Assembly: GCA_000091205.1 (NCBI GenBank)
Contig: AP006485.2
Source of the DNA: Cyanidioschyzon merolae
Taxonomy: Eukaryota
DNA: 64,000 nucleotides
Direction: 5' to 3' (one strand)
The position numbers and the translations under genes are program-made. Of this stretch, positions 1,547-63,424 are shown one piece after another. Under the pieces are notes generated by a model that was given only the letters and a program-made list of their open reading frames with translations, searched no databases and was not told the origin of the DNA. Positions within the stretch are counted from its first letter, which is position 1, and each line of letters starts with the position of its first letter.

Positions 1547-3892
1547 ACATATCGCTATTCAGGGAGATGTACGGAATACTCGGATCGCGACATTTCGCAT
1601 CCCGCAATCACGAACGAATGTGATCAGTGAGTGGTCCGGAACCCCGCACTGGCACAATGGACGGTATCGGCATGGTATCTCGGAGCGTCCATGGATTCCA
1701 GGAAGAGTCGGACGGAACAGGCGCTGTTCAGCACCAGTCGCCGCTCTGAGCAAACATGCCTAGACCTCCTTTTGTGGAACAGAGCTTGCTATATGCGCTT
1801 CACCTTGACGTTTTGAAACGCATCGTCGAGGCGTTTGCATATCCTTTTATGCCTACGCGACAGCATTTGTGAGTGGCCTCGGGCCTGCTGCCACAGTTGC
1901 GACTGAACGCATACGCATGAAGCGCGTGCCCGAGTTGCCCGCAGCAACCTGTCTACCTGATGGACGACGAGGCGCGAACGTTCATGACGGGATTCGCATC
2001 GATTTCGTCACTCCAGGTGCTCTCGATATCGTTTCCCAGAGTCCATTTCAGGGAAATAATAGGTAAGAAAGAACTGGCTGCACTCATTTCAGATACAGAC
2101 TTTGTCCTGTTATCGACATGTGTCGTTGCGAAGCTCTGCATCCCTCGTTTATATGGGTGTTCTCTTGATACAAACGTGTATGTCATATCCGTACCGGATG
2201 AAAATGCAATACTGAACAGTGCGCTCTGTTCTTAGCTTTCGATTGTTCACCAAACTTGTTTTAGACGTAAAGTCTTGGTATCCTGGTTCCAGTACTGCGG
2301 CATTAGGGATACATACCCCGTTTTAGAGCGAGAGGTCGTTTTCTTTCAAAATGGCTCCCGCGACGCCTTGCCGGTGGATTTCGATATATCGCCGGCATCA
2401 CGACGATGCGCAACGCTCTCGACAAGGACTTGTTTACGTAACCGACATCACTATCCAGCTCAGTTGCATGAGCCCCCTGTCTTCTCCTTTGCTCGCGTTT
2501 GGCACGTTCGCGTCATACATTCTTCAAGTTTTATACATCTGTGTTGCAACGCAACCCACTGGGGCGTCCAATTGTGCCAACGGATCGATAGAGAAAAATA
2601 GGCAACGTCGTACTGTGATGACTTTTCACGGCCTCATGCCTCATGATTACCGCACTTGTCCGGTCAAATCATCGACTACTCTAGGATGACAATGCCTCCT
2701 CTGTTTCTGGCCGTCGATGCACCCGCATACGATAACTGCAAGGTACCTCTTAGGACAGGGGACCTTAGACGCATACATTCCTTCTCTTCCCAAGGAAAAG
2801 GGTCATGGACTCGAAATATATAGCCACCGGCAGCGATCGCCCTCAGAGTCAATTGCGTCAAAGCTTTGCACGAACGCAGCGTAGACGAATCGGAATGGTA
2901 CGACTTGTTCTCGAGCCTGGATCTTCGTTCCCGTATCTGTTTCATTATATACGATGTCGAATTCCACATATCCTCTATCCATTAGAACAGCATGCGCTTG
3001 CGCATGCGGCAGAATGAATACTTTCCCAAAGATCGGTTCGGAAGATGCCCGTGATCGTACAGCACGGTACTCGACGCAGGAACGGATGCAGGTGTTGAAG
3101 CGAGCTTCCTGTACCCGTCAAGCGCATGTACAGAGCGATGAAGCAAGCTTTCGAGTGCCACGGGGCAGCGCACAGAGAAAAAGGAATCGGACTAGTAGTC
3201 ATATATTAGAATACCTGACTGCCTTCATGAATAATGGCTGCGACATCTGCACCGATGCACGACACATTGAAGATGAACATGGCGAGCGAGGCGTCAACCA
3301 CGACGTCCATATCTGCTCCAAGAGCGTCGACAACAATCGAAACGAACGAAATCTTGACTTGAACGCTGCCATCATCACGATCATCATCATCATCATCCTT
3401 CGACTCCTGATCATGGAGCTCGAGGGACACCAGAGGCCAGCATCGTGAAAGCCGGAGATACGACAGAGAAGAAAGGAGGCAGTCGTCCAAAAATCCCGAT
3501 AACGCTCATGTTGACAACACTGGGAACATACGCAGAATTTCGTATGTGCATCCGAGGTATCTATCTAGAAACTCTATCCTCTCTGTCTAACTAGAATATG
3601 AAGCATCGACGTCTCATTGGAATGCAGCGCTGCCGATCCAGCGCAACCCCGAAGGACGTCGTGCGGCATACCGTCGACGCTGTTACACCGGCTTTTGCGT
3701 TGTTGCAGGCACAAGGGCACCAACACAGGCGAGCAAGCAGTTCATGATCATCATCAAGTCGTTTCTTGGGGCTTACTGCTGTCTTAAAGTGTACACACAA
3801 CGTTGATCTAGAAAAGACGGAGCTTTCAGAGAGCTGCTTCCGATTTGGACACCACGGGAAGGATCGCTTTCACCGGCTACCTCATTTAGCGA

Positions 3893-10930: not shown

Positions 10931-11498
10931 AATACGTCAGCGTTGGAAAAGACCTGATTTCGGAAACAGATAAGAGAAGCAGAACCTTCGCATATGTTTC
11001 GCAGGCCGATGATGTATCAGCGTTGGCAAAAAGACCTGATTTCGGAAACAGATAAGAGAAGCAGAACCTTCGCATATGTTTCGCAGGCCGATGATGTATC
11101 AGCGTTGGCAAAAAGACCTGATTTCGGAAACAGATAAGAGAAGCAGAACCTTCGCATATGTTTCGCAGGCCGATGATGTATCAGCGTTGGCAAAAAGACC
11201 TGATTTCGGAAACAGATAAGAGAAGCAGAACCTTCGCATATGTTTCGCAGGCCGATGATGTATCAGCGTTGGCAAAAAGACCTGATTTCGGAAACAGATA
11301 AGAGAAGCAGAACCTTCGCATATGTTTCGCAGGCCGATGATGTATCAGCGTTGGCAAAAAGACCTGATTTCGGAAACAGATAAGAGAAGCAGAACCTTCG
11401 CATATGTTTCGCAGGCCGATGATGTATCAGCGTTGGCAAAAAGACCTGATTTCGGAAACAGATAAGAGAAGCAGAACCTTCGCATATGTTTCGCAGGC
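10931..11498. repeat. minisatellite: 82-bp unit x ~6.9, head-to-tail, ~450 bp upstream of the GluRS start
   Basis: Unit atgatgtatcagcgttggcaaaaagacctgatttcggaaacagataagagaagcagaaccttcgcatatgtttcgcaggccg recurs with a period of 82 (e.g. agaaccttcg at 10981 and 11063). Only the first copy is degenerate. The ORFs called inside it on the minus strand are periodic artefacts. Confidence 0.95.
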
Positions 11499-16526: not shown

Positions 16527-19100
16527 TCATTGTTTCTGTGCCATTGGCGTTGCACCTGGTGCCGCGGGGCTCCCCGGAGAGGCGCGCTTGCTCCGGTCTG
16601 GTTTGTTTCTCCATGCCAGGTTCTTCGGTTCTACGTACGTACCAGCTTCAAAATCGTACTCCAAATCCGTCTCGGCCTCTGAGTCGCTGTCACATGCAGG
16701 TTCTGCTGGCGGGACACCTGTCGTTGGCTGACTGGATGTTTCAGGACGAGGCTGCTGGGAGCTGTCGGACTCGGAGGATGAAGAGGTTGCCCCAGGCACT
16801 AACGGTGGTTCGGTTCCTTGCAGTTGGTCCGGATCCTGAACACGAAGCTGCCCATGTGGAGCTCGAGTGTTCCCCTCAGAATCGGCACGAGTTTCGTCCT
16901 GTTCCCGTGTCTGCACCGAAGCATTTCCGTGTTCAGCGTGTGCGGATGCGTCTCGTCTGACGTCTCGCTCTGGTAATGTTTCTGAGAAGGAGGAGGAGGA
17001 GGAGGAGGCCATCGTTGCCTCGGCCGCCCCTGTGCGCAACTGCAGTGTCTCCGTTTCTGGCAGCGCATGCGGCGAACCTGGGGGCGTCGCGTTCGTGACT
17101 GCCTGCTCCGTGCACCACGAGGACGGTCTGGGGCTAGTCGCGGAGCGTGCCTCGTCTACTTTGGAGGTACCGGTCACGTTCGCTGCACGCTGCTGACCAG
17201 AAGCAGCGACGGACGCAGATTTGGTTATCGCTCCACCGGTGAAGACGACTGCATCGGCATACGCAGACTCGTCAATGTCGCGGTACTGGATGAGATGGGG
17301 ATTCCGTTTGCGGCTCGCGAGCAGTTCCGGCGGGATCGAGTAGTGCCACTTCTTGTCCTGGCCACGTATGAGCAGCGGTTGGCGGTGCTCGTTATCCACA
17401 AACACATCTGTCTCATCCAAAACCTCCTCTTTGATCATCTCTTCAACGATATCTTCCAAGGTGACAATGCCCAGAAATCGCCTGGTGCCGTGATCCGCTG
17501 GAGGTTCCAGACTCTCCACCACAATCGCCATGTGAGATCGCCCAACCTGAAACTCGTTCAAAAGATCCAGCAAATTGCACTGCTTGGATACGTATACGGG
17601 GCTCACAACCTTTTTCTTGTGGCTGCGTTTTTTTCGACGAATAATCGCTCGAATAGGCAGTGCTTTGTTCGGATCGACGAGAAGCAACTGTTTCACCAAC
17701 AGGATAGCAATGATGTTATCGCGACAGCCGTCATAGATGGGGATTCGTGAATGACCCAGCCGCAGGATGCGTTTCAGTAATCGACGATCGAGACAATCAT
17801 CAACCGAGAGACAGAACACGTCATCGGCCTTGGTCATGATCTGAAACACAGTCTTCGATGATAATTCTAGAATACCGACCAGCATGGATGCCTCATCGGC
17901 GGAAAGCACGCTAAATCCAGAAGGGCGTCCTCCGTCTGAGGCAACAGCCGGTGCTCGCTCGGTACCAGTAGACGCAGCACGCTCCCAGCTGGTACCGAAC
18001 GACTTGTCGGCAACGGCATTTGAACCCACGTTCGGACTGTCTCTTCGAACTGCCTGTGTCGAAGACGCTCTGGGCATCGTCGATGACGTTGACGCGTAGC
18101 CAGGCGAAGGCTCCTGGATCCGCAGCTCGGTGCGTTCAGCTCCAGCTGCAACGACAGGAGCCCACTCCAGGTCCGGAGCATCCGGAGATGCCACTGTGCC
18201 TGAACCTGCTGCTGCTGCTGCTCCTGGTGCTGGTGTTGCGGCTCTGGTGACGCCCGCTGGTCCGTGCATCTGGATCAGAGCCTTGAGTCGATCGCGATCG
18301 TAACCCGTACGCAGCTCCTTGCCCAGCATTTTGTCAAGCATCCAAGCAGCTGGGGCAGCCACTGGCCAAAAAATCGTCATCAGGGTTCTTGTGAAGCCAG
18401 CGGTGGCAGCGCCCACCTTCAGTCCATATCGACTGCAGACTGCCTGTGGCAGGACTTCTCCGAAAACAACCACGCTCACTACAGAGAGCACCAGGGCGGC
18501 GTATCCGCCAGGAAATAGGGTATCGAGCACGAGAGGCAGTAGCTCATTCGCAAGCGTGTTGGTCAGCAGCAACGTTACCAACAGTTGGTTTCCCTTCGCC
18601 CGCAACGGGGCAATAGCCCGAGCTGCGGATTTTTCCTCCGGATTCGCCCCAGAAACCGCCAGGAGTTCCAATTGAAACAAGTCAAGAGACATGAGGCCCA
18701 GAGTAAGGCCCGCCATGAGTGCACCCAGCAAGATGCAACTCAGCGCCAAAACGAATAGAAGCGGACGCGGAACCGCCTCCAACCATGAAGCCGCTTGCGC
18801 TAACTCATCATCCGGCGTGCGCTGAAGCTTGGACGCCCAGCACACCCACAACAGGTACTTAGCCCCGCTGCAGGTAAGCAGCGGTAGTGGCATGCTGGCA
18901 AGGCGCGCGTCCAGCACCGTTCCCCGGTAACGACTTCGTCTCTGGACAAGGGTCACCGCCAAAGTGACCGCTTGCCCCGTTCCACGGTGTATGGGAACGT
19001 TCCACTCAATTGGAGTGCTCTGGAAGCTGCCTCCAGCCGCAGCTGAGTAGACGCGGGTACCAACGTGCTCTCCCTGCGGACCTGTGGTCGCTCTCAGCAC
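16527..19100 (-). CDS. CNNM/Mam3-type metal transporter (DUF21 transmembrane domain + CBS pair) with long low-complexity termini
   Basis: 857-aa ORF. The DUF21 block is LMAGLTLGLMSLDLFQLELLAVSGANPEEKSAARAIAPLRAKGNQLLVTLLLTNTLANELLPLVLD. It is followed by CBS-pair sequence (TVFQIMTKADDVFCLSVDDCLDRRLLKRILRLGHSRIPIY ... IVTLEDIVEEMI). (GCT)n and (GAG)n runs are encoded as poly-A/S/E. Confidence 0.8.
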   Translation of the reverse strand: MLRATTGPQGEHVGTRVYSAAAGGSFQSTPIEWNVPIHRGTGQAVTLAVTLVQRRSRYRGTVLDARLASMPLPLLTCSGAKYLLWVCWASKLQRTPDDELAQAASWLEAVPRPLLFVLALSCILLGALMAGLTLGLMSLDLFQLELLAVSGANPEEKSAARAIAPLRAKGNQLLVTLLLTNTLANELLPLVLDTLFPGGYAALVLSVVSVVVFGEVLPQAVCSRYGLKVGAATAGFTRTLMTIFWPVAAPAAWMLDKMLGKELRTGYDRDRLKALIQMHGPAGVTRAATPAPGAAAAAGSGTVASPDAPDLEWAPVVAAGAERTELRIQEPSPGYASTSSTMPRASSTQAVRRDSPNVGSNAVADKSFGTSWERAASTGTERAPAVASDGGRPSGFSVLSADEASMLVGILELSSKTVFQIMTKADDVFCLSVDDCLDRRLLKRILRLGHSRIPIYDGCRDNIIAILLVKQLLLVDPNKALPIRAIIRRKKRSHKKKVVSPVYVSKQCNLLDLLNEFQVGRSHMAIVVESLEPPADHGTRRFLGIVTLEDIVEEMIKEEVLDETDVFVDNEHRQPLLIRGQDKKWHYSIPPELLASRKRNPHLIQYRDIDESAYADAVVFTGGAITKSASVAASGQQRAANVTGTSKVDEARSATSPRPSSWCTEQAVTNATPPGSPHALPETETLQLRTGAAEATMASSSSSSFSETLPERDVRRDASAHAEHGNASVQTREQDETRADSEGNTRAPHGQLRVQDPDQLQGTEPPLVPGATSSSSESDSSQQPRPETSSQPTTGVPPAEPACDSDSEAETDLEYDFEAGTYVEPKNLAWRNKPDRSKRASPGSPAAPGATPMAQKQ

Positions 19101-19130: not shown

Positions 19131-19160
19131 GGCTGCTGCTGCTGCTGCTGCTGCTGCTGC
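19131..19160. repeat. (GCT)10 microsatellite just upstream of the CNNM ORF
   Basis: gctgctgctgctgctgctgctgctgctgcg. Confidence 0.9.
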
Positions 19161-19306
19161 GCATCCCGACTAGTCGCGGGACCTGTACGGGTGTCGATGG
19201 TATTTCAGGCATCCTACGCACCGGAATGTGTCGTTTTCAACATGGACGCACACGCTATATTTTGGATGTCTTCTCACTGTTTTGGACATGAGCCGTTGTG
19301 GCCTCT

Positions 19307-20056
19307 TTACGACAGTGTCCTTTTCCTATCTCTCATCTGAGGCTCGGCATTCGCCAGTTTATCGCATCCCTCTACCGCTATCTTCAACAGTCGCTGGATA
19401 TTGATGGCTGCGTTAAAGTCTCGATTTCGCTGCTTGGGGCATTTCTCGAAACCTATGATGTCGAGATGGTCGTTGCGATCAACGCTTCGCGTGACATGCT
19501 CATCTTGTTTGCATACGGTATCAGAGAACGCTGAGCGACCGTGACTCAGATGTCTAGCGGGGTCTTGCTTTACGACCAGCAGGTATGCTTCTCCGAGAAT
19601 CGCATTGTGGTACGTGAACGCCTGCTTCATGATTCGTTCCTTGCTCTTGACGGGCACAGGAGGTTCCATTCGTTTTCTATTTTCGTTTCCGTTTCTGGTG
19701 CCGTACCCTAGGGTCATTTTTTGTCTAGGCGATCCCGTTTACGAGAACTCTGTTTGGTATGCACGCAAGCGGGCGTTACTCCACTCGTTTGAGGATTCTT
19801 GGAACGAGATGCTGTCCGTGATGAAACAAGTTCTGGAACTACGATCCAGAACGGAGATCAAGTTGTGAATTTTCCATTCCTCTACGCTTTCTTCGTCGAA
19901 AGCGGTAACGCATTCACCACTGGAAGCGATCGCTGCGACGGCTGATTTCCGAATGCAACAGCCTTTGCCATGCAAACAGAAGAGACGTGAGCTTCTGCGG
20001 ACATATCTCGTGAGAGCCCTCATGCCGGTGACCAGGTTGGATTCGCAGGCGGCCAC
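19307..20056 (-). mobile_element. decayed TnpB/Fanzor-like (RuvC-type transposon nuclease) gene fragment, copy A; the upstream extent is uncertain
   Basis: The minus-strand ORF 19307-19717 ends ...VCKQDEHVTRSVDRNDHLDIIGFEKCPKQRNRDFNAAINIQRLL. The RuvC-III signature RDFNAAINI is encoded at 19397-19423, with its nucleotides near-identical to copy D. The next minus-strand ORF fragment (19739-20056) has RLFCLHGKGCC..., which resembles RLVIACGAGRW... upstream of copy D. The frames are broken. Confidence 0.55.
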
Positions 20057-20173
20057 AATGGGCGTTGGATTCGCCTTTCAAACGGAAACGATCGTTTCGT
20101 TGTGACTGGTGCAGAGAGGCCTCGGCATGAGCTTACGATCAAGTCACCAACGGCTGACGTCGACTATTTTTCG

Positions 20174-20692
20174 TCATCCATCCATCCATCCAGCCGTGCG
20201 AATCGCTGCGACCACGAGTCGCCTTGGAACACACAAGATCGAGGCATTGAAAAAGGCATGATTTGAGCGTGCTCCATATAAGGGATGGGGAAGTATGGCT
20301 GCTTGTACGCATGAATTGGATAATGACAGGGGCTTTTTTACGAACGCTTCTTCGACGGCGTGGCGAATGCTCTGGATTTCAGTGACTCGACGATTCCCAG
20401 CCACGGAGCGTTGAAGTGGCCACTCAGAAAAGATGACCAAGAATCCTGTAAAAACTCGCGAATATCCGAGCCTTTGTTGCTGCACTTTGAATATCGAGGC
20501 TGGGAATCTATAATAAACTCCGGAGAATCCAAAGACGGGAACAGCGTAACCAGTGCCGTCTTCGATTTCCATCGAGATCGATGAGACTTTTTTTTCTGTC
20601 CGATAGGCCCAAACTAGCGTCGCTGGAATCTGCGGGCTGTCTGAACAACCAGCGATGAATCCCCTCTGATGACGGATACCATTCGGATCCAA
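20174..20692 (-). CDS. hypothetical protein (172 aa) diverging from MRPL53; it could instead be further 5' debris of Fanzor-like copy A
   Basis: The ORF alone; I recognise no motif. It is head-to-head with the 20929 gene. Confidence 0.25.
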   Translation of the reverse strand: MDPNGIRHQRGFIAGCSDSPQIPATLVWAYRTEKKVSSISMEIEDGTGYAVPVFGFSGVYYRFPASIFKVQQQRLGYSRVFTGFLVIFSEWPLQRSVAGNRRVTEIQSIRHAVEEAFVKKPLSLSNSCVQAAILPHPLYGARSNHAFFNASILCVPRRLVVAAIRTAGWMDG

Positions 20693-20928: not shown

Positions 20929-21306
20929 ATGGGACAACTTGGTGTCGCATTGCGTACGCTCCGTTCCAACGTGAACCTCTTCCGGGCTATAGCCAAGTGC
21001 CAGGTGGCTTTCGATCCCTACGATTATCGTTCCGTGAGCGCACGCGAGTTCTTGCGGCGTGTGAATAGTCCGCGCGTTCGACGAGCGAACCCGCGTCTCG
21101 TGGTTGAGGCTACTGTTCGAGACGGCGGTGGCTCTGGAGGCGCCGAGCTCGTCATCAGCTTCCTTGACGGGAGAACGCTGACGCTTCAGCCGCTGGATGT
21201 GGATGTGAAAACGATTGAACGTGAGATTGCGCTGAATATTCCTGTTCTAACTATTTACAAGCTATTTGAAGAGGAGACCTCGGGGTCAGCGGGCTTCAAG
21301 GGATAG
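20929..21306 (+). CDS. mitochondrial ribosomal protein L53 (MRPL53/Mrpl44)-like
   Basis: 125-aa ORF. CQVAFDPYDYRSVSAREFLRRVNSPRVRRANPRLVVEATVRDGGGSGGAELVISFLDGRTLTLQPLDVDVKTIEREI parallels human MRPL53 [72 protein letters not shown]. Confidence 0.55.
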   Translation: MGQLGVALRTLRSNVNLFRAIAKCQVAFDPYDYRSVSAREFLRRVNSPRVRRANPRLVVEATVRDGGGSGGAELVISFLDGRTLTLQPLDVDVKTIEREIALNIPVLTIYKLFEEETSGSAGFKG

Positions 21307-26431: not shown

Positions 26432-26779
26432 TCATCTTGCCTTACGCTGCGCGCCTTCTTGGGTATAGAGACGCCTGCTGCACCCCCGTGCCAGGGCCAT
26501 ATGGAACGCTCGTAATTGCGTTACGCGGGCGTACACCATCAAGTTTCGGTTTCTGGCTACGCTCATCAACACCAGCATTTGCGGGTTCTTTTTCTCATTC
26601 TGCTTCCCTCTCCTTCCTCTAGTCGCCGGCTTGGAATACGCCGACGTCTTCGGTTCCTGTAAAATCGTCGCCAGCAGTCGACAGATGTTGATGGCAGTGT
26701 TCGTGTCTCGATGTCGCAGCCTTCTGCTGCTGTTCACGCATTTCATGCACAGGCTGGAGTTGCGATAGAGGCATTGCAT
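26432..26779 (-). mobile_element. decayed TnpB/Fanzor-like gene fragment, copy E (Zn-finger half + RuvC-III)
   Basis: Minus-strand ORF MQCLYRNSSLCMKCVNSSRRLRHRDTNTAINICRLLATI... A CxxC (CMKC) lies 10 aa before RDTNTAINI, which is encoded at 26684-26710 (rc cgagacacgaacactgccatcaacatc). This is the canonical C-terminal architecture of TnpB/Cas12/Fanzor RuvC-III. Confidence 0.55.
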
Positions 26780-27973
26780 GGCATTTTCATTTTAGTTGTG
26801 CTCAGACTTGGAGCGCTCTTGGCATCAGTGGCACTTGACGTGGCTAAAGTGTTTCCCCATGCCCAGCCAAAATTCTTCATCCGTGGACTTCGCTCGGGCC
26901 TGCTTGATCGCTGCATACATACCCGTTCAGGGGTACAGTGGGGCCCCGCCTCAATACCCCGTTCCGTTTTCGAGTCCGCTGCAGTACCGCACCGTTTCGT
27001 AAGATCACTGGCTTCCTCTGACAAATACCCGCGTTGAATACGCTGTACGCTGCAAACGCAAACGCACGCTGTTCCATTCGATAGCGCATTTGTGGAATGC
27101 GGTGTTCTTCACGCGGAAGCAATGCCCCGAAGCAGAATCTAGGCTGGAGATCAGGTCTTGGAATTTCGATTCGTCAACGCTCCCGTCGTGCAAAGGAGTG
27201 ATGCACGCTCGATTGGAAGCGATTGCTGGGATGAATCTAGTCCGATTCCGTTACTCCTTTCGATGTGAACAGAAGATACGGGGGCCCCTGTGAGCGTGCT
27301 CCATGAGCGCTGTTATGCTGGTAGCGCATGCCGTTTCGTCAACGGCCACAACCACAGGAGGATTTTTCATTCGAACGGATTCGATTATTTGGAGTGAGGA
27401 TTTCAGTCAGCTTTTGGGGCTCGGCCTGTGAACATTTCGTCAACGGACCAAGTCGTGTATTTTTCCTCGACAAGACAACAGCTCGAATGGCTGTTCGCAT
27501 GAGTTGCCTCGAAGTAGAACGATCGAAAACTTGGAGGTTGCTTGATTTGAGCATACTGCACGAAAGAAAACGAGAACACAAAACACTTGTACACAGGCAT
27601 TGGATAATGTCATCGGTTATTTTAGAAACCCTTGTTCGCCGGCGTCGCGATTCATCTTGATTCCGGTGGCGTACCGAATGCCATCGGCACACCGTGGAAG
27701 GCACCAATCAGGAAAAACGACCGAGAATCCTAGAACTACACATGAATCCGTGATCCCTACTTGCTGCGCTTCGAATGTTGAGTCTGCTTATCTAACAAGT
27801 TCAGAAAAATAATCCAAAGGCGGTAACGGAGCGAGCACTTCAGGGTCCCATTTTCATCTGACACAGGCGTAGAGCGTCCCCGGCAATCAACATTCCCATC
27901 AGAGCGCTTACGCGAAGCCCTCTCGTCGTTTCACATTCAGCTGTATCAGACAAAAGCGCTCGTGCGACGACCG

Positions 27974-30633: not shown

Positions 30634-33600
30634 GCTGCTTACAGCGGCACGCCTCGCGGTTTCCTATGCCTCTCGCGGTACTCTCGAGGCAGCGGCTGCA
30701 GCGCAACGAACCCGCACCCTGCAACCTACGTGTACGCTGGTGAGTACGGCACACCGGTGCTTCACCAGAACCTATCGCTTTTGGCGTGCTAGCATGCAGT
30801 CCGACAGCCGACGAGCGTTCTACGCCGAGCGGTGTTTCCCGGAACACTAGTATTAGCACGCTCTTTTCTGTTTCTGTTTGTTGGTGTTCGCAGGTACACC
30901 GCGAACAGATTGTACGCCACGAACCGGCAAAAAGTTCCGTAAAAATTTAACGATATCATTGGAAGTTGGCCGTTGCCGCATTACTTGTACAAGGCAGTTA
31001 TTCTGCGGTCAGTAGATAGGTGGAATACCCAACTTGTCGTGACCCGTGGAGAATTTCGTCCACCAAAGCCAGAACATATCGAGTTCTATTGTCACGAATG
31101 TCGCCTCGTCCATTGATTCCACTCCATACGTTCTTGAAGAACTATCAGCAAAGAGGCCACAGGATGTGAAGCCTCCGTACCAACAGTACGAACTGAATTG
31201 AAGAGACAAGGCTGGGCACAGGAAACCAGATGCTTCAGTGTGAGTCCGTCACGCTCGGAACCGTACACCGTCGAGTGCGTACTTCATTGTGAACCCTAAC
31301 GACAGAAGCGACAGCTGATGATCTCATCGCAAGAACATGCATCCAGTGGAAACGGTAGAACAGTGTATGGGTTGTCGAAGAGGGCCAAACCGCCGTTTTG
31401 CAACAGAGGGACGAGGAAGTGTTCCGAAAACATCAGCGTTTGGAGCGAGTTTTTCGTGTGCTCTCCCATGATTCGCCAGAAGAGGTGAATCGTTCAGCAC
31501 CACAGCCTTTGTCGACAAAGTACGCATCGTGGCTCTATCGTCACCGATTTCTCGGACCTGCTGATTGGCAACATCGCTTTCCATCGCCTAAAACCGATCA
31601 AAGCGTGCCCGACTGAGACTGGTGCTAAGCTGCTCACCGGTCTAGCCTGTTCTGCTTATGTCAACCCAGTCAAATGCGTCTCCTCTATTGTCGAGCGCAT
31701 TTTTCACCCGCACCTAACAGTGAACGAGTCGTTTGCATGCGTGAAACCGGAAGCTACAGGACGACATTAAAAGTCGCGTTGCTTCTTCTTCGAATAAGGC
31801 TCGCTCAGCTTCTTTCGCCTTGACGCATCTTGCCCAGCAATTATTCGTTTAAATTACGGGCGCACGGTTGCAAGCTGGGTACATCCCTCTAAAATTTTCG
31901 ACCAAATCCACGTGAGGCAACTGATGATCTGGAGAGGAAATCCAACACTGCCTGATTGAAGGATCCTGGATTTGCGCAAACGACAACCCGAGTTTCCTGA
32001 TGGATCGCTGCGACCCGTCGGCGATGGTAACATCTACATCCCCAACGCCTACGAGTACCAAACCATCCTCAAAAAGCATCTATGCGTCAAACAAGGGCGC
32101 TGCATGGGCACTGTATCCGTAGTGGCCTCAACGCATCGACCAAGAGGCTTGTGCGTCAATAAAAAGGAATTTCTGGTGAGTCGCTGAAGGCGAGCGGCGG
32201 GCTGGTGATGGAAGCGCTCGACGTGCTAGCGAGTCCCGATGAGATATTGCAACGAGAGCGGCATTCACCTCGTATCGTCTAGGCTCGTGGTGTTGCTGTG
32301 GGCTTGGCATCGACGCGTGTCGTACACATGGGATATTTGAAACGTAGTGCCTGAATTCCTCGCATCTTGCGCCTCTCTGTTTCCCTGAACAGAGGTCTGC
32401 AGAACGATGCATATGATTTCCCCAAACCCGGGCGTCCAAGTCTGCTCAAACGCTGATTCGATGTGCTTCCCACGTATCGTAACAAGTCCTATGGTGTAAA
32501 CGAATACATTGGTGTACTGGAATGTATGGCCTGTTCAGTGAGCGACGGCTGATCGCTGAAGGCAAATCCGAAGTACTCGAACGGCTTCACGAAGCGCATT
32601 GTCCGAGGCCGGTAAAGATTTCTCGTTTACAAGGAGAAAACGGATAGAAATCTGCATAGAGCATGCACGCCTACAGCATATGCATCTATGTGTACTTTGC
32701 GAGACCTAGGCATGAGTTGCGCGGAATGGACTAATTTGCAATCGTTCAAAGCAAATGAGAAGAAGGATTTTGTGGTGAGCATGGCTCTCGTGCCGACAAA
32801 CATCATGGCCGACGTCGTCCAGCTAAATCAAGGCTCGGGTGACCAAGGCCTGAATGGAAAGCACATGAAGCAGTTCAAAGATTCTGAAGCTCGTTATCAT
32901 TCGAAATCGAGCACGGTGGAAGCCACGAGACTTTCCAGCAAGTGGAGCAATGGCACCAGGACCCATCTCGAAGCCCAGAGTATCATATCGCACAGAGACG
33001 GATGCTTCGTACTCGTCATTCAGAGCGTGCACGGGTGCTCAAGTGGCTCATACACACAATGTTTGGCGGGAGTACATGCGCTCGCTCTTCGGTCGCCAAC
33101 TGTTTCGACTATACCAAGACGACAATCGCGCTTTCGCCAGGTTTCTTAACGATTTCTAAAGAAGATACAGCTGAATATTCGGGTCGTTTAATGATGCCCT
33201 AGGGCGTTGAACGGGCTAGGTCGCGCAAACCCTGAACCCCTGCTCCTTCGACGAAATCGAGCACCGAGCGCAGGAAGCGGTTCTGCAGGATTCTCGTCGA
33301 TGAAGTCCGGATGACGTTCACGGAACACGTGCACAAGTACATCTTGAAGCTGGCTCAGAAAGAGATCCTGAAGCAGAGCCCCATGCACGTATTATTGTAC
33401 GGTACGCTCATCAAACGTCTGACGGGGCGTCGATCGAAGGCACGCGTGTTGCCATGGATTCATATTATCAGCAGAAATGCGCAGAAGCACTTTCAGCACA
33501 GAGACGAGAACATCTCGATCAGCACTTGGGAATATCTCGGTCTTGCACAGCGCCAACCAGTTTCGTCGAGCGAATTTCCATGGGAATCGAATAGGACACC

Positions 33601-41271: not shown

Positions 41272-41547
41272 GTGATCATCGAGCGAAGAAGGGCACCTGA
41301 CGCAGACGAACGCGAGGAACAGGTGCGTTCAACCAGCGACAACGAACGTGTGGAGCTCGTGATCCGACACTTTAACGTCGTCATCAATAGCAGGAGATGT
41401 ATGGCGTTGAAGACAAGACCCGAGGAGCTGTGGCCAGCGAAATCTGTGGGGCAATCTTTCGGGCTTGACGTGTGTAGCGAGAAACCAAAGCCGATAGCAG
41501 TCGATCGGTCAAAAAAGACTGGTAGGCGTCTGTGCCTGGGTATCTAG
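41272..41547 (+). mobile_element. decayed TnpB/Fanzor-like gene fragment, copy B (RuvC-III region; catalytic Asp mutated)
   Basis: ORF ...VELVIRHFNVVINSRRCMALKTRPEEL...KTGRRLCLGI. RHFNVVINS (41365-41391) aligns to RDFNAAINT of copy D, and 41330-41420 is ~75% nt identical to 61270-61360 and to 52770-52860. The D->H change means it is inactive. Confidence 0.5.
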
Positions 41548-43709
41548 TTACACTCCCGCGTTGCGGAACATGTTCGGTACTAGTGAACTGCGTAGATGCA
41601 GAGGAAGGAAACACGTCGATTCATGCCAGATGGTCCGCAGGGCACGAGGCGCCTCAGCGAGCGACGGAGCACACTCCTTTCAAATACGTATCGCTTTTGC
41701 CGTGGATGTCAATTGTCTTTCCATGGACTTTTCGCAAACCAATCAGCCATGCACGTGCGCTGTGCTCGTTTCCAATTAAAATGAGAGACTGGACATCGCG
41801 CCCTGTTCCTGGTTTGAGCGTTTGCCGGACTTTTTGTTCAGAAGTGCAGACTCGACATTCGAAGTTGAACAACAGGAAATGATGGATTCATATCCGGTGT
41901 TACGATTCTCGGTCGTGTTGTCGACGTTGCTCGACTGTCTCTCTCTCTCTCTCCATCTCTCTCGCTGGAATTCTTCACGTCACCGGTATCAGGATGATTT
42001 CCGACGATCTCGAAAGGCGGTTTCGCAAGATAACCGCTCTCATGATGCAATGCGCATGCCCATGCATCCATACTCGTCCTTTCCTTACATGTACTGCAGC
42101 AAAATCGCGCATGCCTCAAGTTTCCAATCCTTGTTTCTCAAGATATCTCGGGTGCGTAGCCGTGCGAGCGCCTGGATTGAGGACCAAAACTACTCCGTGT
42201 TGTCCCTTGACGACCTGTTCACAAGCTCATGCCAAAACTTTGTTGAACTCGTTATCTCAAATAATCAATTCTGTTCCAAAGACAAACCCTCGATGCCTTT
42301 ACGTCATCCCAGGACCATCATTCTGCAGCAGCACGATACCTCTACCAGGTAATGCTCCCAGAGAGACCTATCTCTTGTGTTTGCCTGGGAAAGCTACTTG
42401 GACTCGAATCTGCGTCATCGCATCGATCGCTTCCAAAGGAACGCTTGTCACCGCTGTGCACGAAGCGAACGTACATGGATCGAAAGTCCCCGACTTTGCT
42501 TTCCAGTCTGGATTTAGCTTCCCATAGATGCTTCATCATGGACAACATCACGTGCCGCAAATTATCCATCGCATGCGAAAGCGAGCACTCGCGTGTGCAG
42601 CTGACGAAGTACACTCCCGGCGGATCGCTCGGGCCAGGCCCATGATCACAGGGCATGGTGCTGGACACGGAAACATAGGAGAGCATCGAGGTGAGCTTTC
42701 TGTACCTGTCAAGAGCGTCTGCGTTGTTCTGCAGAAAGCGTGCACACGCAGCAGACCGGCGTTCGGAGTAGGATGAGGTGCTGTGGACCTCACGAGATAT
42801 TTGACCACAATTGATAGTCTCCGCTGCGAACAGCGCACTGCGGATGTACATACAAAGTAGATCAATGTGGCAAGCGAACCGTATATCGCAACTGCTATCC
42901 GTGCATGAACGACGCTGCCAAGAAAAGCAAGATAGCAAATCATGACGTGAACGCTCCCACGAGCATCCTACAACTGCTGAAACCAGAGGCGACGGAAAAA
43001 GTAGAGAGCCGCGCATTTAAGGCTGGAAACAAGAGATAAGCAGGGGAAGCAGTCACAGAAAAATTCCGCAAAGCCCGGTACTGATGACTGCGAAAAGCGA
43101 CCAGCGTTTCTCTAGATACGCCCGAGTCAGGCAAGTGCACCCGTTCCGGTGTATTCTCCTGACACGGGTGCAATTGCCGACCCGCGGCGGTGAACCTCGC
43201 AAACACATTCCTCCGTCGGACACGTTCACGCAGTCGAGGGGCTCTCGCTCGCCAGCCATCACTCTGCGAAAGTTTTGGTGATGCAGAAAGCGCTCCCAGT
43301 TACGAAACACTGCAACCACCGCGCAGACTCTGGTAACTGTGCGTCGGTCTGTTCCCGCTTATGACGCGCAAATGGCAAGGCCGTGCTCCTCCGAAACGCA
43401 ACTCGTCGTCGTGTCTCCACCTGCACGTTGGACCTCGTTTCCCAATGTTTTTCTCTGCAATTTCGGGGATGCTCACCAACCTGTCCCGGTCTGCGTCACC
43501 CTGCCGGGCTACCACGAGATACTAGGGCACATTCCGTTGGCCATTGACGTCCGCACAACCACCGGGAAGGTGCGATCGGTTCCCGCCTTGTCGTCTACGC
43601 TTCCGCTCTTTGATAGGCTCTTTTCGCCGTGCATCCTTGCAAATCGTCTTTCAGGCTTTCTATGCGGTCACACTGACGAGCGCGCCTGCCGACGTTCGGT
43701 AATCCTCGT

Positions 43710-48494: not shown

Positions 48495-51400
48495 AAAGCA
48501 CCGCTCATCATGCTATTGCATCACGATTCTGCTTCTTTGAATCCGGTGGAATCGGGGCTTTTTAGTAGCTCGTGCATCCTGTTTTGGTGTTGCTGTTGCT
48601 GTTGCTCCTGGGATTCTAGCTATGTCTTCGGCGCTGTAATGACTGGTTCGTGAACGGAGAACAAATGGAGTGAGCATTCGAATGACCCGAGCACATTCCC
48701 TTTCCGACAATTGGCATTGCAGGTCCTGTGAAATTTTCCACATGTGCCACTGGTCTGAAGCTATCACGTGATGCGTGAAGGCGGGACCTCGTCAACGACA
48801 TGCGAGCGTCCTTTGGGTGAATACCCGCTGATACCGCTCAGGCGTTTGCGTGTCGTGCGACTGCCAGTTATGCGGTATTCCCTGCAGCCGTGACTGCTTC
48901 TGGTACAACGCCAACAGCTGGTTCTGCCTGCGCTGTCGTTGGTCACGTCTACCATGAATGCTTGTTCACTAACTGCCCGTTCATATGCGCGTCATGCTGG
49001 AGCAACCGCCAGAGCTAGCCCTAACGTTGCTCGCGTTCGCCATGAATACTGCTTAATCACCGTTGCGTTCACTAGGACATACTGCACTAGTTACCAGCAG
49101 TGCTGCGTTGGCTGTCGCTTGCTTCCACCGCTACTTCTGCTTCAGCTTCTTCGCAATCGAGTTTGCATAGTACAGCAGCGACCGCGGGCGCTGCCCCTGC
49201 TCTCGCGAGCGTCGAGCGTGGCTGCGCTATGGGCATGTTCGCGTTCGGATGCGCGTAGTATAGCTACATCTTCTGTTGCATGCCAAACGTCGCACGGCGT
49301 CCCAGCTTCCAAAGCAACTGATACGTGATGTTTAGGAAGCATCTGGTTGGGGTACGCGTCGAACTTCGATTGCCGTATCCGTACGCTTCGTCGGCGCAGA
49401 CACAATGCGCTCCCACGGCGTCTCCGTTTTCATGGACTTCTTCTCGTTCGCCCGGGTAATGCTGCATCCTGCATAAATATGCTTGTGCCTCTGAAACTCC
49501 TAGTGCAGTCGTAGAAAATCCGGGTCAGCATGGTGTAGCATCCCCGACATCCTACAGACAACAACGAAGCACTTCATGGAGGTCTTTCTGAACCACGAAT
49601 AACGGAGTAAATGCGTCTCATGCATCCTCAGAGGATCAAGAGCATCTCCAAACAAACGTCTGGCGCTGCGCGACGTCCATCGAAGAACTCCTGCCATACG
49701 GCAAACTACACAAAAGTATGCCGATCACATCCTTCGTATTACTTTCCAGGAATCATATTCGAACGAACCCTCTAATATCTGTCGTACGATATCGGGGCTT
49801 GATGCCCGCATCGCGAGATTCTGAAGAGAAGCGAGCGCGTTGCGAGCGCACCACGGAAACAGCGCGACGGGACACGTCACCGGACAGATTATTCCATTTA
49901 TGTCGCATATCTGATATTTGCAGCACGATGCATGACGCCTGCACGCAGCGCGATTCCCGCCTGAGACACGTGTCTGGATATCCCTTCTGGCGGCAGATCG
50001 ATTTCTCTAACAGGATTCTCACCGATGCGTCGTTGCTTTCACTTACCTGGAAAATAAGCCAACGATCTTATGCATCCGGCAACACAGATCACTTCATGTA
50101 CAGAAGTTCCATCAGTGATAGAGGTTGGATTGAGATCCACGATCCTGTCTGGGTGCGGGTACCCAGCGCAGGTGCTTGTTACGACACTGGATGCGCAATC
50201 ATCGCCCCCGTCATTGCCGGTTGGAAACCGTTCGACGAGCTATTGCCTTGGCGGGAGGCGGCTCATGGTACGTGCGTTGAATGCGCTGGTGCCTCATCTA
50301 CTCCATGTCAGAATAAATTGGAACAGGTCCCCTATCTCGGGCGTACGCGCCCATGTTCAGATCTCTCCCAATTGTCATGAATACCCAGCTTTGGAAGCAT
50401 TTTCGGCGCCTGCTCCCTCATCCACGCTCTTGTCTCTGGCCTTGCATATGCCGGTCTTCCATGTCGACAGTGCTGTTGCAAGCAGTCAAGGGATGTAGGT
50501 GAAAGCGTACGAGGCCCAATTTCGCCGCCTTAGGTTGTTGTCCGAGCATACCTTGGAGAGGCGGAGGTTGCAATGTACGGATCCTTTGTGTATATACGGC
50601 ATCTGTGCGCCCTTCGCACCAGTGACACTTGGCCGTGGTCATGCGTTCGTGACTCTCGACCGCATGTTCTTCTCTGAAGCACGCCCTGTTGCGTGGTACG
50701 GCTCCAGAAGGCTCCCTTGGATGCAGTCCTGCGTTTGGGCACTTGGCTTGGCACCCCGTGATCCTAGGCTTTCACCGGGATCTCCATCCGGCGAGCTCAC
50801 TGTCCGCTGCACGCGCAAGCGCACGCTGTTCCATTTATGATGGGTTTTCGGACCTCGATTTTGTCCATAATGGCACCAGTACCGTAGGGAATATCCAGGT
50901 AGGAGAACAAGTCGAGCACTGTCGAACGGTATACGCTCTGTTCTTGCAACGCGATACTGCACCCTGCACTGGGTGAGATCGCTGTGATGACACAAGTCCG
51001 AGTCCAGGATGCTTTTCGACATTAACGGACTAGACGACAGCATCTGGGACATGTCCCGCGAGAAGCATCATGCTGGTGCTGTCGAAAGCCATGTTGTGGA
51101 TAGCCAAAAATGTAGAGGTGGATACGCCATTCGAACAATGCCTTGAAAAAAAGGTAACTTGAAGAATGCGTGATTTGAGCGATCTACAAGTTAGTAAAGA
51201 AGAGTACTGGGTGCTTGTATGTATGGATTCGATCATGATTTGGGTCATTTGGAGAACTCTTGTTCGAGGATGTCACGAATCGTCTTCATTCCGGTTTCAT
51301 CATTAATCCTAGAGGCAGGACTTCGATATGGCTTCTCTAAAAACTCCAACGCGAATCCTGAACCAACGTGCAAATCCGTAGGCTCTTTTAGCAGCACGTC

Positions 51401-51934
51401 GAGAATCGAGATTGCATACAGAGAAAGTTCGGATATCGCCAAAAAACCAGGAAAGGAGCAAGTGTTCAAGCGCTCTCTCATATTCTGACTGATGTATTGC
51501 ATGTCTCCCGAGGCGCACTCAACGCCTGTCGGTTCACCGTCGAAATGGAATGTGTTTGTAGAGTTATGCAAGCTCTCCCGGTGATGCACATGATTTGGCC
51601 CTCATGCCCGCCTCTGGTCTTTCAACTCAGTATTGTTTCACCCCTGCTGTGGTGTATGGCAGGCGATCGAAATCCCGATGCAAAGCACTGGAGAGATCGT
51701 GGACGAACTGCCTGTAGGATATGTATTCTTCATTGAACAGTTCAAGGAGGAATGCATTCCTGCTTCCAGTCGGTCATACCGTAGTTCTCAGATAGTTGGC
51801 GAGCGACGACAGAAATAAGCTTAGAGGATCCGCCCCAAAACTGGTATTGACAAAGACTGCCTGCAGTCGATGGTAGATAACGACCCGTTGATCACGTTAC
51901 GGAAAGCAAAAGCGACTCTAGCAGACACATCGGC

Positions 51935-53028
51935 ATGTCTGTGTGTCAACAGCTAGTTGGTGCCGTCCTGAAATCGCTCGGATACCGTCGCAAAAACAGA
52001 GTCCTAGTTCATTCACGGCCATCTTCCATTGAAGTCGCAACGACAGCCTTCTTCCTGGAACGTCGCGATCGGTATGATCCAAAAAGACGTCGGTTCGTTT
52101 TTCCACTCGATGAGACATGTTACGGAAGAAACGGTCAGAGCGTATATGTGTGTTCGCAGAAATGTCCCGTAGTGTGCACTATCGAGCTCGAAGAGATCTA
52201 TGACATCATCATCTGATCTAGCTGCAGTGGATTCCATTTGCGGCCTCAGTTCTTTTCTCTCGTAGAGAAGGCTCATACAACAGCACCCTCTTTTTGTCGA
52301 GTCATCGAAGACTGTTCCCCTGGTGTCTGGCGACGTCCTCCTATTAAAGGACATGTTATTTCACTATTCGCGTTACGGTCGAGCTGTTGCAGACTGTATT
52401 GGTTAGAGCTGGTTTCATTCCTCCGTACTCTGCGTCGTTCAATTCCGTCGAAGGAGCGTTTTCCATCGTGAGACGTAATGATCGTTTCACTGAGCGAATT
52501 GATGAAGCATTCAGCACACGGTGACATACCGGGGCTTTTTTTCTTTCTGCCTCAATTGCTGCTCGATGCGGGAAGGTCCTTATCTCTGGCTATAAACAAG
52601 TGCGTTCATTTTCGAAAACCACTAAGAGATGAGCTTGGATATATACTCTAGGACGTCGAGTTGTAGAGAGAGGGATGCGCAGGGCTTCTGCGATAGACTA
52701 ATACGGAGAGCTGGCAGAGCACCAAGTTCCAATGAGGACGCGAGTTCGAGGAATCCCTGCACTGGTGAGAACAACAAGACGCATCAAACGCATGGAGGTT
52801 ATGAAGCGAAACTTCGATGCCACCGTCAACGTCAGACGATGCTTGGTGCTGAAGACGATACCCGAGGAGCTGACGCGATCTACCCCTGTGGGATGGCGTC
52901 TCAGGCTCGAAATTTGCAAGGAGAAACTGAAACAGATAGCAGACGGCGGGTCAATCAAAACCGGGAGGCGTCTGCGGGCCGGTATCAATTTACCTTCCAT
53001 GCTCGTGGGACATTTTTTGTTTCACTGA
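51935..53028 (+). mobile_element. decayed TnpB/Fanzor-like gene, copy C (degenerate RuvC-I-like and RuvC-III segments ~800 nt apart)
   Basis: ORF 51935-52216 has RVLVHSRPSSIEVATTAF (51998-52051), which aligns to the RuvC-I-like DFVVGADPTNTNIVTVAV of copy D with the Asp lost. ORF 52732-53028 has IKRMEVMKRNFDATVNVRRCLVLKTIPEELTR (motif at 52804-52833), which aligns to GKQRMEFVNRDFNAAINTRRCAVMERRPPELTR of copy D. The 3' 200 nt are ~75% identical to copy B. Confidence 0.5.
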
Positions 53029-63331: not shown

Positions 63332-63424
63332 GCGGACGTGTCCGAGTGGTTAAGGAGAACGATTAGAAAGCGCCTAGATATCGTTTGGGCTCTGCCCGCA
63401 CAGGTTCGAATCCTGTCGTCCGCG
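63332..63424 (+). tRNA. tRNA-Ser (anticodon AGA at 63365-63367) with an 11-nt intron (63369-63379) one nt 3' of the anticodon; long variable arm
   Basis: GCGGACG-TG-TCC-GAGTGGTTAA-GGA-G-AACGA-TTAGAA[agcgcctagat]A-TCGTT-TGGGCTCTGCCCGC-ACAGG-TTCGAAT-CCTGT-CGTCCGC-G. The 7-bp acceptor stem pairs perfectly. The type-II D-loop AGTGGTTAAGG and the T-loop GGTTCGAATCC are identical to eukaryotic tRNA-Ser. The discriminator is G, and no CCA is encoded. Confidence 0.85.

What the first reader, a model, noticed from the sequence alone, without database searches (positions are those of the whole stretch)
19307..20056. Fanzor/TnpB-like relic copy A next to the MRPL53 divergent promoter
The minus-strand fragment ends ...FEKCPKQRNRDFNAAINIQRLLKIA. 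The motif nucleotides (cgagactttaacgcagccatcaatatc) are 24/27 identical to copy D. The adjacent upstream minus-strand ORF piece (RLFCLHGKGCC...) resembles RLVIACGAGRW... of copy D, so at least ~750 nt of the element survive. The catalytic Asp is retained. It sits between the CNNM gene and a divergent gene pair, so it may contribute regulatory sequence.
Basis: seen in the sequence. Interest (0 to 1): 0.6.

Follow-up and report, generated by a model that had tools for sequence, protein, structure and literature searches.

The report
Dead transposase–Fanzor transposon copy

Summary
The motif is real. NRDFNAAINI lies at 19397-19426 (-) and its 27 nt match "copy D" at 24/27. That short motif is the only similarity to copy D.

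Copy D is the published CMe-1A Fanzor1 element of C. merolae (73% identity to the CMe-1 consensus). Copy A belongs to a different, only distantly related Fanzor1 lineage.

Copy A is a near-full-length member (about 19200-20585, minus strand) of a roughly 1.4 kb dispersed repeat. The window holds at least six copies. A DNA profile built without A finds it at E=3e-190.

A 7-copy consensus shows the structure:
- The 5' half is residues 1-227 of a DDE_3 (Tc1/mariner/IS630-like) transposase.
- The 3' third is the last ~200 residues of a Fanzor (RuvC-II to RuvC-III).

So the repeat is an internal-deletion, non-autonomous derivative of a transposase-plus-Fanzor transposon. Intact 3.5 kb versions exist in metagenomes.

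In A the RuvC-III Asp survives. The RuvC-II Glu is Gln, the zinc-finger cysteines are lost, and RuvC-I is absent from the whole repeat family.

A evolves about 2.6 times faster than the neighbouring gene and is not annotated. Verdict: an ordinary pseudogenised transposon copy. A regulatory role is untested.

The parts
19200..20585 (-). Whole relic: copy A of a ~1.4 kb dispersed non-autonomous repeat (5' end at 20585, 3' end at 19200)
   Evidence: A DNA profile built from five other copies, without A, hits 20574-19240 at E=3.1e-190 and covers model positions 10-1343 of about 1375. The ends were refined by aligning the termini of the copies. A is 70% identical to a leave-one-out consensus, K2P about 0.39.
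19793..20507 (-). Decayed DDE_3 (Tc1/mariner/IS630-like) transposase remnant, corresponding to residues ~1-227 of a 317-aa transposase
   Evidence: Consensus nt 88-792 matches the DDE_3 protein of L007 by tblastn at E=4.4e-43. The consensus translation reaches Pfam PF13358 at 30.3 bits, above the 28.6 cutoff. A's own translation matches that protein at residues 139-227 by BLASTP, E=3e-7. Coordinates were mapped.
19739..20056 (-). It is the transposase catalytic-core remnant: the first DDE Asp is now Cys (IVAACES versus IVAIDET) and the second Asp is kept (ITDSISF versus LMDNIAF).
19303..19799 (-). Decayed Fanzor1-type C-terminal remnant (profile positions 539-745 of 752: RuvC-II strand, zinc-finger region, RuvC-III, C-terminal tail). 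A 1-nt frameshift lies near 19725.
   Evidence: The segment 19310-19738 matches the profile of intact family-2 Fanzors at E=1.3e-11. The 7-copy consensus matches at E=9.8e-47. phmmer finds 14 relatives covering nearly the whole ORF. tblastn alignments are and the mapping.
19307..19717 (-). 136-aa ORF, open by chance within the relic. Not annotated in the C. merolae 10D reference.
   Evidence: Sub-threshold Pfam hit to PF07282, E=0.0053.
19397..19426 (-). RuvC-III motif NRDFNAAINI. The Asp codon is at 19418-19420.
19565..19567 (-). Position of the RuvC-II catalytic Glu, now Gln (VVKQDP versus consensus VVKEHLTT and intact VWEHLTT)
19132..19160 (.). (GCT)n microsatellite in the 307-nt gap between the relic's 3' end and the first ATG of CNNM (18893). 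Flank, not part of the element.
20929..21306 (+). Flanking gene MRPL53 = CYME_CMC090C, 344 nt from the relic's 5' end
16527..19100 (-). Flanking gene encoding a CNNM-domain protein

Best explanation
Copy A (about 19200-20585, minus strand) is an ancient, pseudogenised copy of a ~1.4 kb non-autonomous DNA transposon.

Proposed history:
1. The parent was a Tc1/mariner/IS630-like cut-and-paste element. It carried a DDE_3 transposase gene followed by a Fanzor1 gene, the RNA-guided RuvC nuclease.
2. An internal deletion fused transposase residue ~227 to Fanzor residue ~539. This removed the third catalytic residue of the transposase, the spacer, and the N-terminal two-thirds of Fanzor including RuvC-I.
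3. The deletion derivative kept both ends. It was presumably mobilised in trans by a full-length relative, spread through the C. merolae genome, and then decayed by point mutation.
4. Copy A landed in the spacer between the divergently transcribed CNNM and MRPL53 (CMC090C) genes and now fills 68% of it.

It has no nuclease or transposase capacity today. The 136-aa and 105-aa ORFs are accidental open stretches.

Shown: family membership, the chimeric anatomy, loss of catalytic residues, lack of constraint. Inferred: mobilisation in trans, the deletion origin, and the absence of any present function.
For: - A leave-A-out DNA profile hits 20574-19240 at E=3e-190. Five further copies lie in the window (2189-3588, 26491-27867, 41765-43157, 50303-51492, 63657 to the end) and one in metagenome locus L005, which has unrelated flanks.
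- The consensus splits cleanly: nt 88-792 = DDE_3 residues 1-227 (E=4e-43; Pfam above cutoff); nt 786-1289 = Fanzor profile positions 539-745 (E=1e-46).
- Every copy's Fanzor homology starts at profile position 534-544, which indicates one shared deletion.
- Intact 3478-bp elements with DDE_3, a 72-nt spacer and a 765-aa Fanzor, about 30-bp terminal inverted repeats and TA flanks occur in five different insertion contexts.
- A predicted model of an intact relative (P0090) folds like SpuFz1, PpFz and GtFz. 10 of 13 intact proteins match PF07282.
- In A, E is replaced by Q at RuvC-II, the Cys are lost, and there is a frameshift plus four in-frame stops.
- Variant density among ~99%-identical strains is 14 per kb in the relic against 5.4 per kb in CNNM and 0 in MRPL53. 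A 1-bp indel falls inside the 172-aa ORF. The 136-aa ORF has 3 nonsynonymous and 2 synonymous variants.
- The ORF is absent from the NCBI annotation of strain 10D.
Against: - Only seven copies at 52-62% pairwise identity were available, so the consensus and the exact termini are rough.
- Terminal inverted repeats and TA duplications in the C. merolae copies are only suggestive: 5 of 7 termini are TA-flanked and A's 5' end is degenerate.
- No autonomous partner was found in C. merolae itself.
- The strains compared are about 99% identical, so the test for constraint has little power.
- Nozaki 2007 reports that the Fanzor-type interspersed repeats of C. merolae are transcribed, so transcription of A cannot be excluded.
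Confidence: 0.9

Rival explanations
1. Copy A is a decayed copy of the same element as copy D, that is CMe-1A, the known ~3.2 kb Fanzor1 repeat of C. merolae.
For: 24/27 nt identity over the RuvC-III motif. CMe-1A has about 150 copies in this genome (PMC3627910), and several lie in this window.
Against: - The CMe-1-family profile aligns only 17 aa of A at -2.3 bits. blastn finds 33 nt.
- There is no BLASTP similarity to the published CMe-1 consensus, whereas D is 73% identical to it.
- A matches the other family at E=1e-11 (protein) and 3e-190 (DNA).
- Six of eight synonymous sites in the motif agree. My rough estimate is that this is not remarkable given shared codon bias.
Confidence: 0.02
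2. The 136-aa ORF, or a longer spliced product, is a domesticated and expressed Fanzor-derived protein.
For: The ORF is intact in the window and in all four metagenome strains read in detail (L001-L004). Most other members of its 90% cluster are also 136 aa; two are shorter at 107 and 120 aa. The RuvC-III motif is perfectly preserved. Related repeats are reported to be transcribed (PMC1955436).
Against: - The strains are about 99% identical, so ORF survival is uninformative.
- RuvC-I is absent, RuvC-II is Gln, and the zinc-finger Cys are lost.
- Paralogous copies carry independent stops and frameshifts.
- Variants are 3 nonsynonymous to 2 synonymous, and the relic changes faster than neighbouring genes.
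- It is not annotated in strain 10D.
Confidence: 0.03
3. The relic has been co-opted as cis-regulatory sequence (promoter, 5'UTR or insulator) for CNNM and/or MRPL53. This could be true in addition to the main explanation.
For: It occupies 1386 of the 2035 nt between the two start codons. Its ends lie 307 nt and 344 nt from the ATGs.
Against: There is no evidence of conservation above neutral. The same repeat sits in many other contexts in the window. No expression data are available here. The bacterial-type promoter scan offered by the tools does not apply to a eukaryote and was not run.
Confidence: 0.1
4. The motif is a chance match in non-coding DNA.
For: Only 12-17 aa align to copy D.
Against: 0 of 100 shuffles gave the nucleotide pair. 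The ORF scores E=1.3e-11 against intact Fanzors among 1900 window segments and E down to 2e-9 against 1.8 billion proteins.
Confidence: 0

Closest known systems
Fanzor1 carried by Tc1/mariner elements (for example PGv-1, PUl-1 and PUl-4; Bao & Jurka 2013, PMC3627910)
   Same: A mariner-type transposase gene is followed by a Fanzor1 gene inside one element bounded by terminal inverted repeats and flanked by TA. The intact relatives found here (L007-L011) have exactly this layout. Non-autonomous derivatives that share the ends are also known from that paper.
   Different: Copy A's family is a specific internal-deletion chimera: transposase residues 1-227 fused to Fanzor residues ~539 to the end. 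It is far more decayed, at about 30% amino-acid identity between copies. That paper did not list such a family for C. merolae.
CMe-1A / CMe-1 Fanzor1 repeat of C. merolae (Bao & Jurka 2013), most likely the same as the 'WSV486-like' interspersed element of Nozaki 2007 (PMC1955436)
   Same: Same genome and the same protein superfamily (the RuvC cores align by hhalign at 97.9%). Both are old dispersed repeats with truncated ORFs. Copy D in this window is a member.
   Different: A shares only the RuvC-III motif with CMe-1 at sequence level. A's family is 1.4 kb rather than 3.2 kb, carries a DDE_3 remnant, and keeps a zinc finger immediately before RuvC-III in its consensus, which CMe-1 lacks.
Spizellomyces punctatus Fanzor1 (SpuFz1, PDB 8GKH) and other solved Fanzor1 structures
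   Same: The AlphaFold model of the intact relative P0090 matches SpuFz1, PpFz and GtFz best (Foldseek E=2e-12 to 3e-7, TM 0.45-0.59). It has the D...E...D RuvC triad (D446, E630, D721).
   Different: No similarity is detectable by sequence search against PDB. Copy A keeps only the last quarter of such a protein.
IS630 / Tc1-mariner DDE_3 transposases (Pfam PF13358)
   Same: The 5' half of the repeat consensus passes the Pfam gathering threshold. It has an N-terminal HTH and a DDE core.
   Different: It is truncated after the second catalytic Asp, and the first Asp is mutated in A.

Membership tests
Fanzor/TnpB (RuvC-type RNA-guided nuclease) | RuvC-III motif (R-D-x-N-A-A-x-N-I) | tested here: met
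   NRDFNAAINI at 19397-19426. Sub-threshold PF07282 hit, E=0.0053.
Fanzor/TnpB (RuvC-type RNA-guided nuclease) | Significant extended similarity to intact family members | tested here: met
   The profile of 14 intact proteins matches 19310-19738 at E=1.3e-11 in two collinear stretches. The 7-copy consensus matches at E=1e-46.
Fanzor/TnpB (RuvC-type RNA-guided nuclease) | RuvC-II catalytic Glu followed by [TS][TS] | tested here: not met
   A has VVKQDPAR. The consensus of the copies has VVKEHLTT and intact proteins have VWEHLTT.
Fanzor/TnpB (RuvC-type RNA-guided nuclease) | RuvC-I catalytic Asp | tested here: not met
   No copy of the repeat aligns to profile positions below 534. The region holding D446 is deleted from the whole family.
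Fanzor/TnpB (RuvC-type RNA-guided nuclease) | C4 zinc finger between RuvC-II and RuvC-III | tested here: not met
   A has HLSHGRS and HLDIIGF where the consensus has SHGCE and HLCMKC and intact proteins have CxxC...CxxC.
Fanzor/TnpB (RuvC-type RNA-guided nuclease) | Fanzor1 fold of intact relatives | tested here: met
   The P0090 model (pLDDT 72.9) matches SpuFz1 9cez/8gkh at E=2e-12, then PpFz and GtFz.
Fanzor/TnpB (RuvC-type RNA-guided nuclease) | Associated omega RNA at the 3' end of the element | not tested
   The 3' ~100 nt after the ORF is shared by the copies, but no structure or covariation analysis was run. No Rfam family matches there.
CMe-1A repeat (the family of copy D) | Alignment to the CMe-1 protein or element beyond the RuvC-III motif | tested here: not met
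   D itself passes at 73% identity, E=1e-92.
Tc1/mariner/IS630-like DDE_3 transposon | DDE_3 transposase domain | tested here: met
   The family consensus reaches PF13358 at 30.3 bits against a 28.6 cutoff. tblastn E=4e-43. A's own remnant gives BLASTP E=3e-7, but A alone gives no Pfam hit.
Tc1/mariner/IS630-like DDE_3 transposon | Intact DDE/D catalytic triad | tested here: not met
   The first Asp is Cys in A (IVAACES). The second Asp is kept (ITDSISF). The third residue lies beyond residue 227 and is deleted from the family.
Tc1/mariner/IS630-like DDE_3 transposon | Terminal inverted repeats and TA target-site duplication | tested here: inconclusive
   Both are clear in the intact metagenome elements. 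In the C. merolae copies there is a shared ~CCnGTGTCAG terminus at both ends, with TA next to 5 of 7 termini. A's 5' end is degenerate.

The most novel reading that the evidence does not exclude
The ~1.4 kb transposase-Fanzor chimera may be a second, so far undescribed Fanzor1-bearing repeat family of C. merolae. Bao & Jurka 2013 list only CMe-1.

This window holds six copies of it and four CMe-1-type relics. Together they make up about 19% of 64 kb. If that density is typical, Fanzor-transposon debris would account for far more of this 'simplest' eukaryotic genome than the published 0.7% (transposons) plus 5% (interspersed repeat).

The DDE_3 remnants next to CMe-1-type copies would also give the unclassified CMe-1A family a mariner/IS630 origin.
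Probability: 0.3. Interest if true: 0.35.

Novelty: new member of a known kind. Interest (0 to 1): 0.18.

Why it matters
It matters little for biology at large. Fanzor1 genes riding in mariner-type transposons, and decayed Fanzor repeats in C. merolae, have been described since 2007 and 2013.

The analysis has three modest uses:
- It shows that the C. merolae intergenic spacers in this window are largely built from two distinct Fanzor-transposon lineages. That qualifies the textbook picture of a nearly transposon-free genome.
- It supplies a consensus, and intact relatives from metagenomes, for a lineage that could be screened as a source of new Fanzor nucleases.

Tried and rejected
- Direct A-versus-D comparison by blastn, tblastx and tblastn, and a CMe-1-family profile: only the motif aligns.
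- My own early guesses were all overturned by the family alignments:
  - that 'FEKCPKQ' is a decayed CPxC zinc knuckle;
  - that 'RRLVVAAIRTAGW' (about 20200) or 'EIEDG' (about 20560) were Fanzor RuvC motifs.
  These stretches fall in a non-ancestral Cys position and in the transposase HTH region.
- A weak match of 20279-20350 to the Fanzor N-terminus (E=0.07-0.6) was not reproduced in other copies or in the consensus. That stretch belongs to the transposase.
- L005 as an orthologous locus: rejected, because its flanks are unrelated.
- The search for homologous proteins with a stop-spliced 457-aa translation returned nothing, although the identical ORF is in the collection. This looks like a word-index limitation.
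- The IMG/VR scan with the intact family found nothing, so a giant-virus source is not supported there. One intact member (P0100) does sit on a contig that looks like a giant virus.
- Sequence searches against PDB found nothing. Only the fold search did.
- The phage collection gave no match.
- More divergent orthologous loci could not be obtained. All metagenome contigs are about 99% identical and tend to break at the repeat.

Full report
**Source and setting**

The window is Cyanidioschyzon merolae 10D chromosome 3. The 125-aa ORF at 20929-21306 (+) is identical to CYME_CMC090C (XP_005535310.1, mL53). Its longest contig is 481,791 bp, which is the published length of chromosome 3 (PMC1955436). 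Hot-spring metagenome contigs L001-L004 and L013-L016 are about 99% identical to the window.

The finding lies in the spacer between a CNNM-domain gene (16527-19100, minus strand; first ATG at 18893) and the divergently oriented MRPL53 gene.

**The observation**

Both minus-strand ORFs exist: 19307-19717 (136 aa) and 19739-20056 (105 aa). The 27-nt motif encoding RDFNAAINI matches 61305-61331 at 24/27, and no shuffle produced such a pair.

Nothing else aligns between A and 'copy D':
- blastn finds 33 nt and tblastx finds 12 aa.
- tblastn of D's conceptual protein finds 12 aa.
- A profile of 77 homologues of D aligns 17 aa at -2.3 bits.

**What copy D is**

D's conceptual protein has 77 strong homologues. 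It is 73% identical (E=1e-92) to the CMe-1 consensus protein printed in the supplement of Bao & Jurka 2013.

D is therefore a CMe-1A copy. CMe-1A is the known ~3.2 kb Fanzor1 repeat, with about 150 copies (PMC3627910). It is most likely the same as the 253-copy 'WSV486-like' interspersed element of Nozaki 2007 (PMC1955436).

Other CMe-1-type relics in the window lie at 31736-33559, 41326-41499 and 52609-52944.

**What copy A is: the protein evidence**

phmmer of the 136-aa ORF against 1.8 billion representative proteins gave 14 hits at E<1e-3, nearly all covering the whole ORF at 31-35% identity.
- Most are short ORFs, which I interpret as other relics.
- One, P0090 (756 aa), is an intact protein.

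Searching with P0090 returned 16 hits at E<1e-3, including P0090 itself. Fourteen of them, mostly 680-860 aa, were used to build the family-2 profile. Features of this family:
- 10 of 13 members match PF07282.
- Its RuvC core aligns to the CMe-1 family at hhalign probability 97.9%, at only about 21% identity.
- It has a D446 / E630 / D721 triad and two CxxC pairs.
- Its AlphaFold model (pLDDT 72.9) matches SpuFz1, PpFz and GtFz best in the PDB (E=2e-12 to 3e-7).

It is thus a second Fanzor1-type lineage. Its profile hits window segment 19310-19738 at E=1.3e-11, in two collinear stretches: positions 564-604 and 696-731.

The true counterpart of D's RLVIAYGAGRW is KMTLGYGTRNG at about 19700, not RLFCLHGKGCC.

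**What copy A is: the DNA evidence**

Metagenome locus L005 carries relic ORF P0081. It is collinear with A over about 1.2 kb, but its flanks are unrelated. It also matches four other places in the window.

A DNA profile built from five copies, without A, finds:
- 20574-19240 (-) at E=3.1e-190, spanning essentially the whole model;
- copies at 2189-3588 (+), 26491-27867 (-), 41765-43157 (+) and 50303-51492 (-);
- a truncated copy at 63657 to the window end (+).

Terminus alignments place A at about 19200-20585. The copies are 52-62% identical to each other and about 70% identical to a leave-one-out consensus (K2P about 0.4), so the family is old.

**Anatomy**

The 7-copy consensus restores much of the ancestral coding sequence.
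- Nt 786-1289, in one frame, match Fanzor profile positions 539-629 and 673-744 (E=9.8e-47). The match includes VVKEHLTT (RuvC-II), HLCMKC (zinc finger) and NRDLNAAINI (RuvC-III).
- In every copy the Fanzor homology starts at profile position 534-544.
- The 5' part gave no Fanzor signal.

The explanation came from the intact relatives. In five different insertion contexts, the 765-aa Fanzor P0098 is preceded by a 317-aa DDE_3 (PF13358) transposase gene 72 nt upstream. Both sit inside a 3478-bp element with ~30-bp terminal inverted repeats and TA flanks.

That transposase aligns to consensus nt 88-792:
- residues 1-227, 35% identity, E=4.4e-43;
- the consensus translation passes the Pfam DDE_3 threshold;
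- A's own 105-aa ORF region aligns to residues 139-227 (E=3e-7).

The repeat is therefore an internal-deletion derivative: transposase residues 1-227 fused to Fanzor residues ~539 to the end.

In A, the transposase part maps to 20507-19793 and the Fanzor part to 19799-19303.

**State of copy A**

| Feature | State in A |
|---|---|
| RuvC-III Asp | retained (19418-19420) |
| RuvC-II Glu | now Gln (19565-19567) |
| Ancestral zinc-finger Cys | replaced |
| RuvC-I | absent from the whole family |
| First transposase Asp | now Cys |
| Third transposase catalytic residue | deleted |

Four stops interrupt the long frame, and a frameshift lies near 19725.

Evidence on constraint among the ~99%-identical strains:
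- The relic carries 20 variant sites in 1.4 kb (14 per kb), against 5.4 per kb in CNNM and none in MRPL53.
- A 1-bp indel falls inside the 172-aa ORF.
- The 136-aa ORF has 3 nonsynonymous and 2 synonymous variants.
- The ORF is not in the NCBI annotation.

All of this fits neutral decay, although the strains are too close for a strong test.

**Mechanism**

Shown:
- A belongs to the repeat family.
- The structure is a chimera of two gene remnants.
- The catalytic residues are lost.

Inferred:
- A mariner/IS630-type element carrying Fanzor1 as cargo suffered an internal deletion.
- The product kept both ends and was mobilised in trans by cut-and-paste into TA sites. Five of seven family termini are TA-flanked.
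- It multiplied and then decayed.

Copy A now fills 1386 of the 2035 nt between the two start codons. Its ends lie 307 nt and 344 nt from the ATGs. Whether it contributes promoter sequence is untested.

**Comparison with the known, and novelty**

Fanzor1 captured by mariner-type transposons, and non-autonomous derivatives of them, are described in Bao & Jurka 2013. Decayed Fanzor repeats in C. merolae are also described there and in Nozaki 2007. Copy A is thus a new member of a known kind.

The only mildly new points are these:
- This is a second Fanzor1 lineage in C. merolae, not listed in the 2013 survey. Whether it is named in Repbase could not be checked.
- Its deletion-chimera form.
- Fanzor-transposon debris makes up roughly 19% of this window.

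Interest is low.

Noticed in passing
window 31558-31716 (+) and 52414-52485 (+): Remnants of the C-terminal core of a DDE_3 transposase ('LLIGNIAFHRLKPIK...VNPVKCVSSIV', 'FIPPYSASFNSVEGAFSIV') lie directly upstream of the CMe-1A-type Fanzor relics at 31736-33559 and 52609-52944. tblastn E=0.001 and 0.059. This hints that the CMe-1 lineage, left unclassified by Bao & Jurka 2013, also once rode a mariner/IS630-like element.
   Followed up: partly
window 2189-3588 (+), 26491-27867 (-), 41765-43157 (+), 50303-51492 (-), 63657-64000 (+): Five further copies of the same ~1.4 kb transposase-Fanzor chimera. Together with four CMe-1-type relics, about 12 kb (about 19%) of the 64 kb window is Fanzor-transposon debris. 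The published figure for transposons in this genome is 0.7%.
   Followed up: partly
window 10937-11498: A tandem array of an 82-bp unit, 6.9 copies, 99% identical. Metagenome contigs begin or end inside it.
   Followed up: no
window 19132-19160: A (GCT)9.7 microsatellite between the relic and the CNNM start codon. Its length differs among the metagenome strains: a 9-bp deletion in L001 and L004, and a 1-bp difference in L002 and L003.
   Followed up: no
window 63332-63424 (+): An Rfam tRNA hit (48 bits) spans 93 nt for a 71-position model. ARAGORN does not call it, so it is probably an intron-containing tRNA gene. It lies about 230 nt upstream of repeat copy c5.
   Followed up: no
L007-L011 (metagenome contigs, GC 43%); L006 (GC 55%): An intact 3478-bp mariner-like element: a 317-aa DDE_3 transposase, a 72-nt spacer and a 765-aa Fanzor1, with termini CTACAATCTTGTTATG... 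and ...CATAGGTGTAG and TA flanks. It sits in five different contexts at 99.5-100% identity, so it was probably active recently. Another intact family member (P0100) sits on a 32.7 kb contig with Peptidase_S74, 2OG-Fe(II) oxygenase, ATG8 and UvrD genes, which looks like a giant virus. An IMG/VR scan found no relatives.
   Followed up: partly
window 41326-41499 (+): A short CMe-1-type Fanzor C-terminal fragment (profile positions 668-726) lies about 270 nt upstream of the 5' end of repeat copy c3. The two relic families sit close together here.
   Followed up: no
L013-L016: Metagenome contigs carrying the MRPL53 gene stop 170-500 nt upstream of it, at or just inside the 5' end of relic A. L013 ends inside copy c2. 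These are assembly breaks of the kind expected at dispersed repeats.
   Followed up: no
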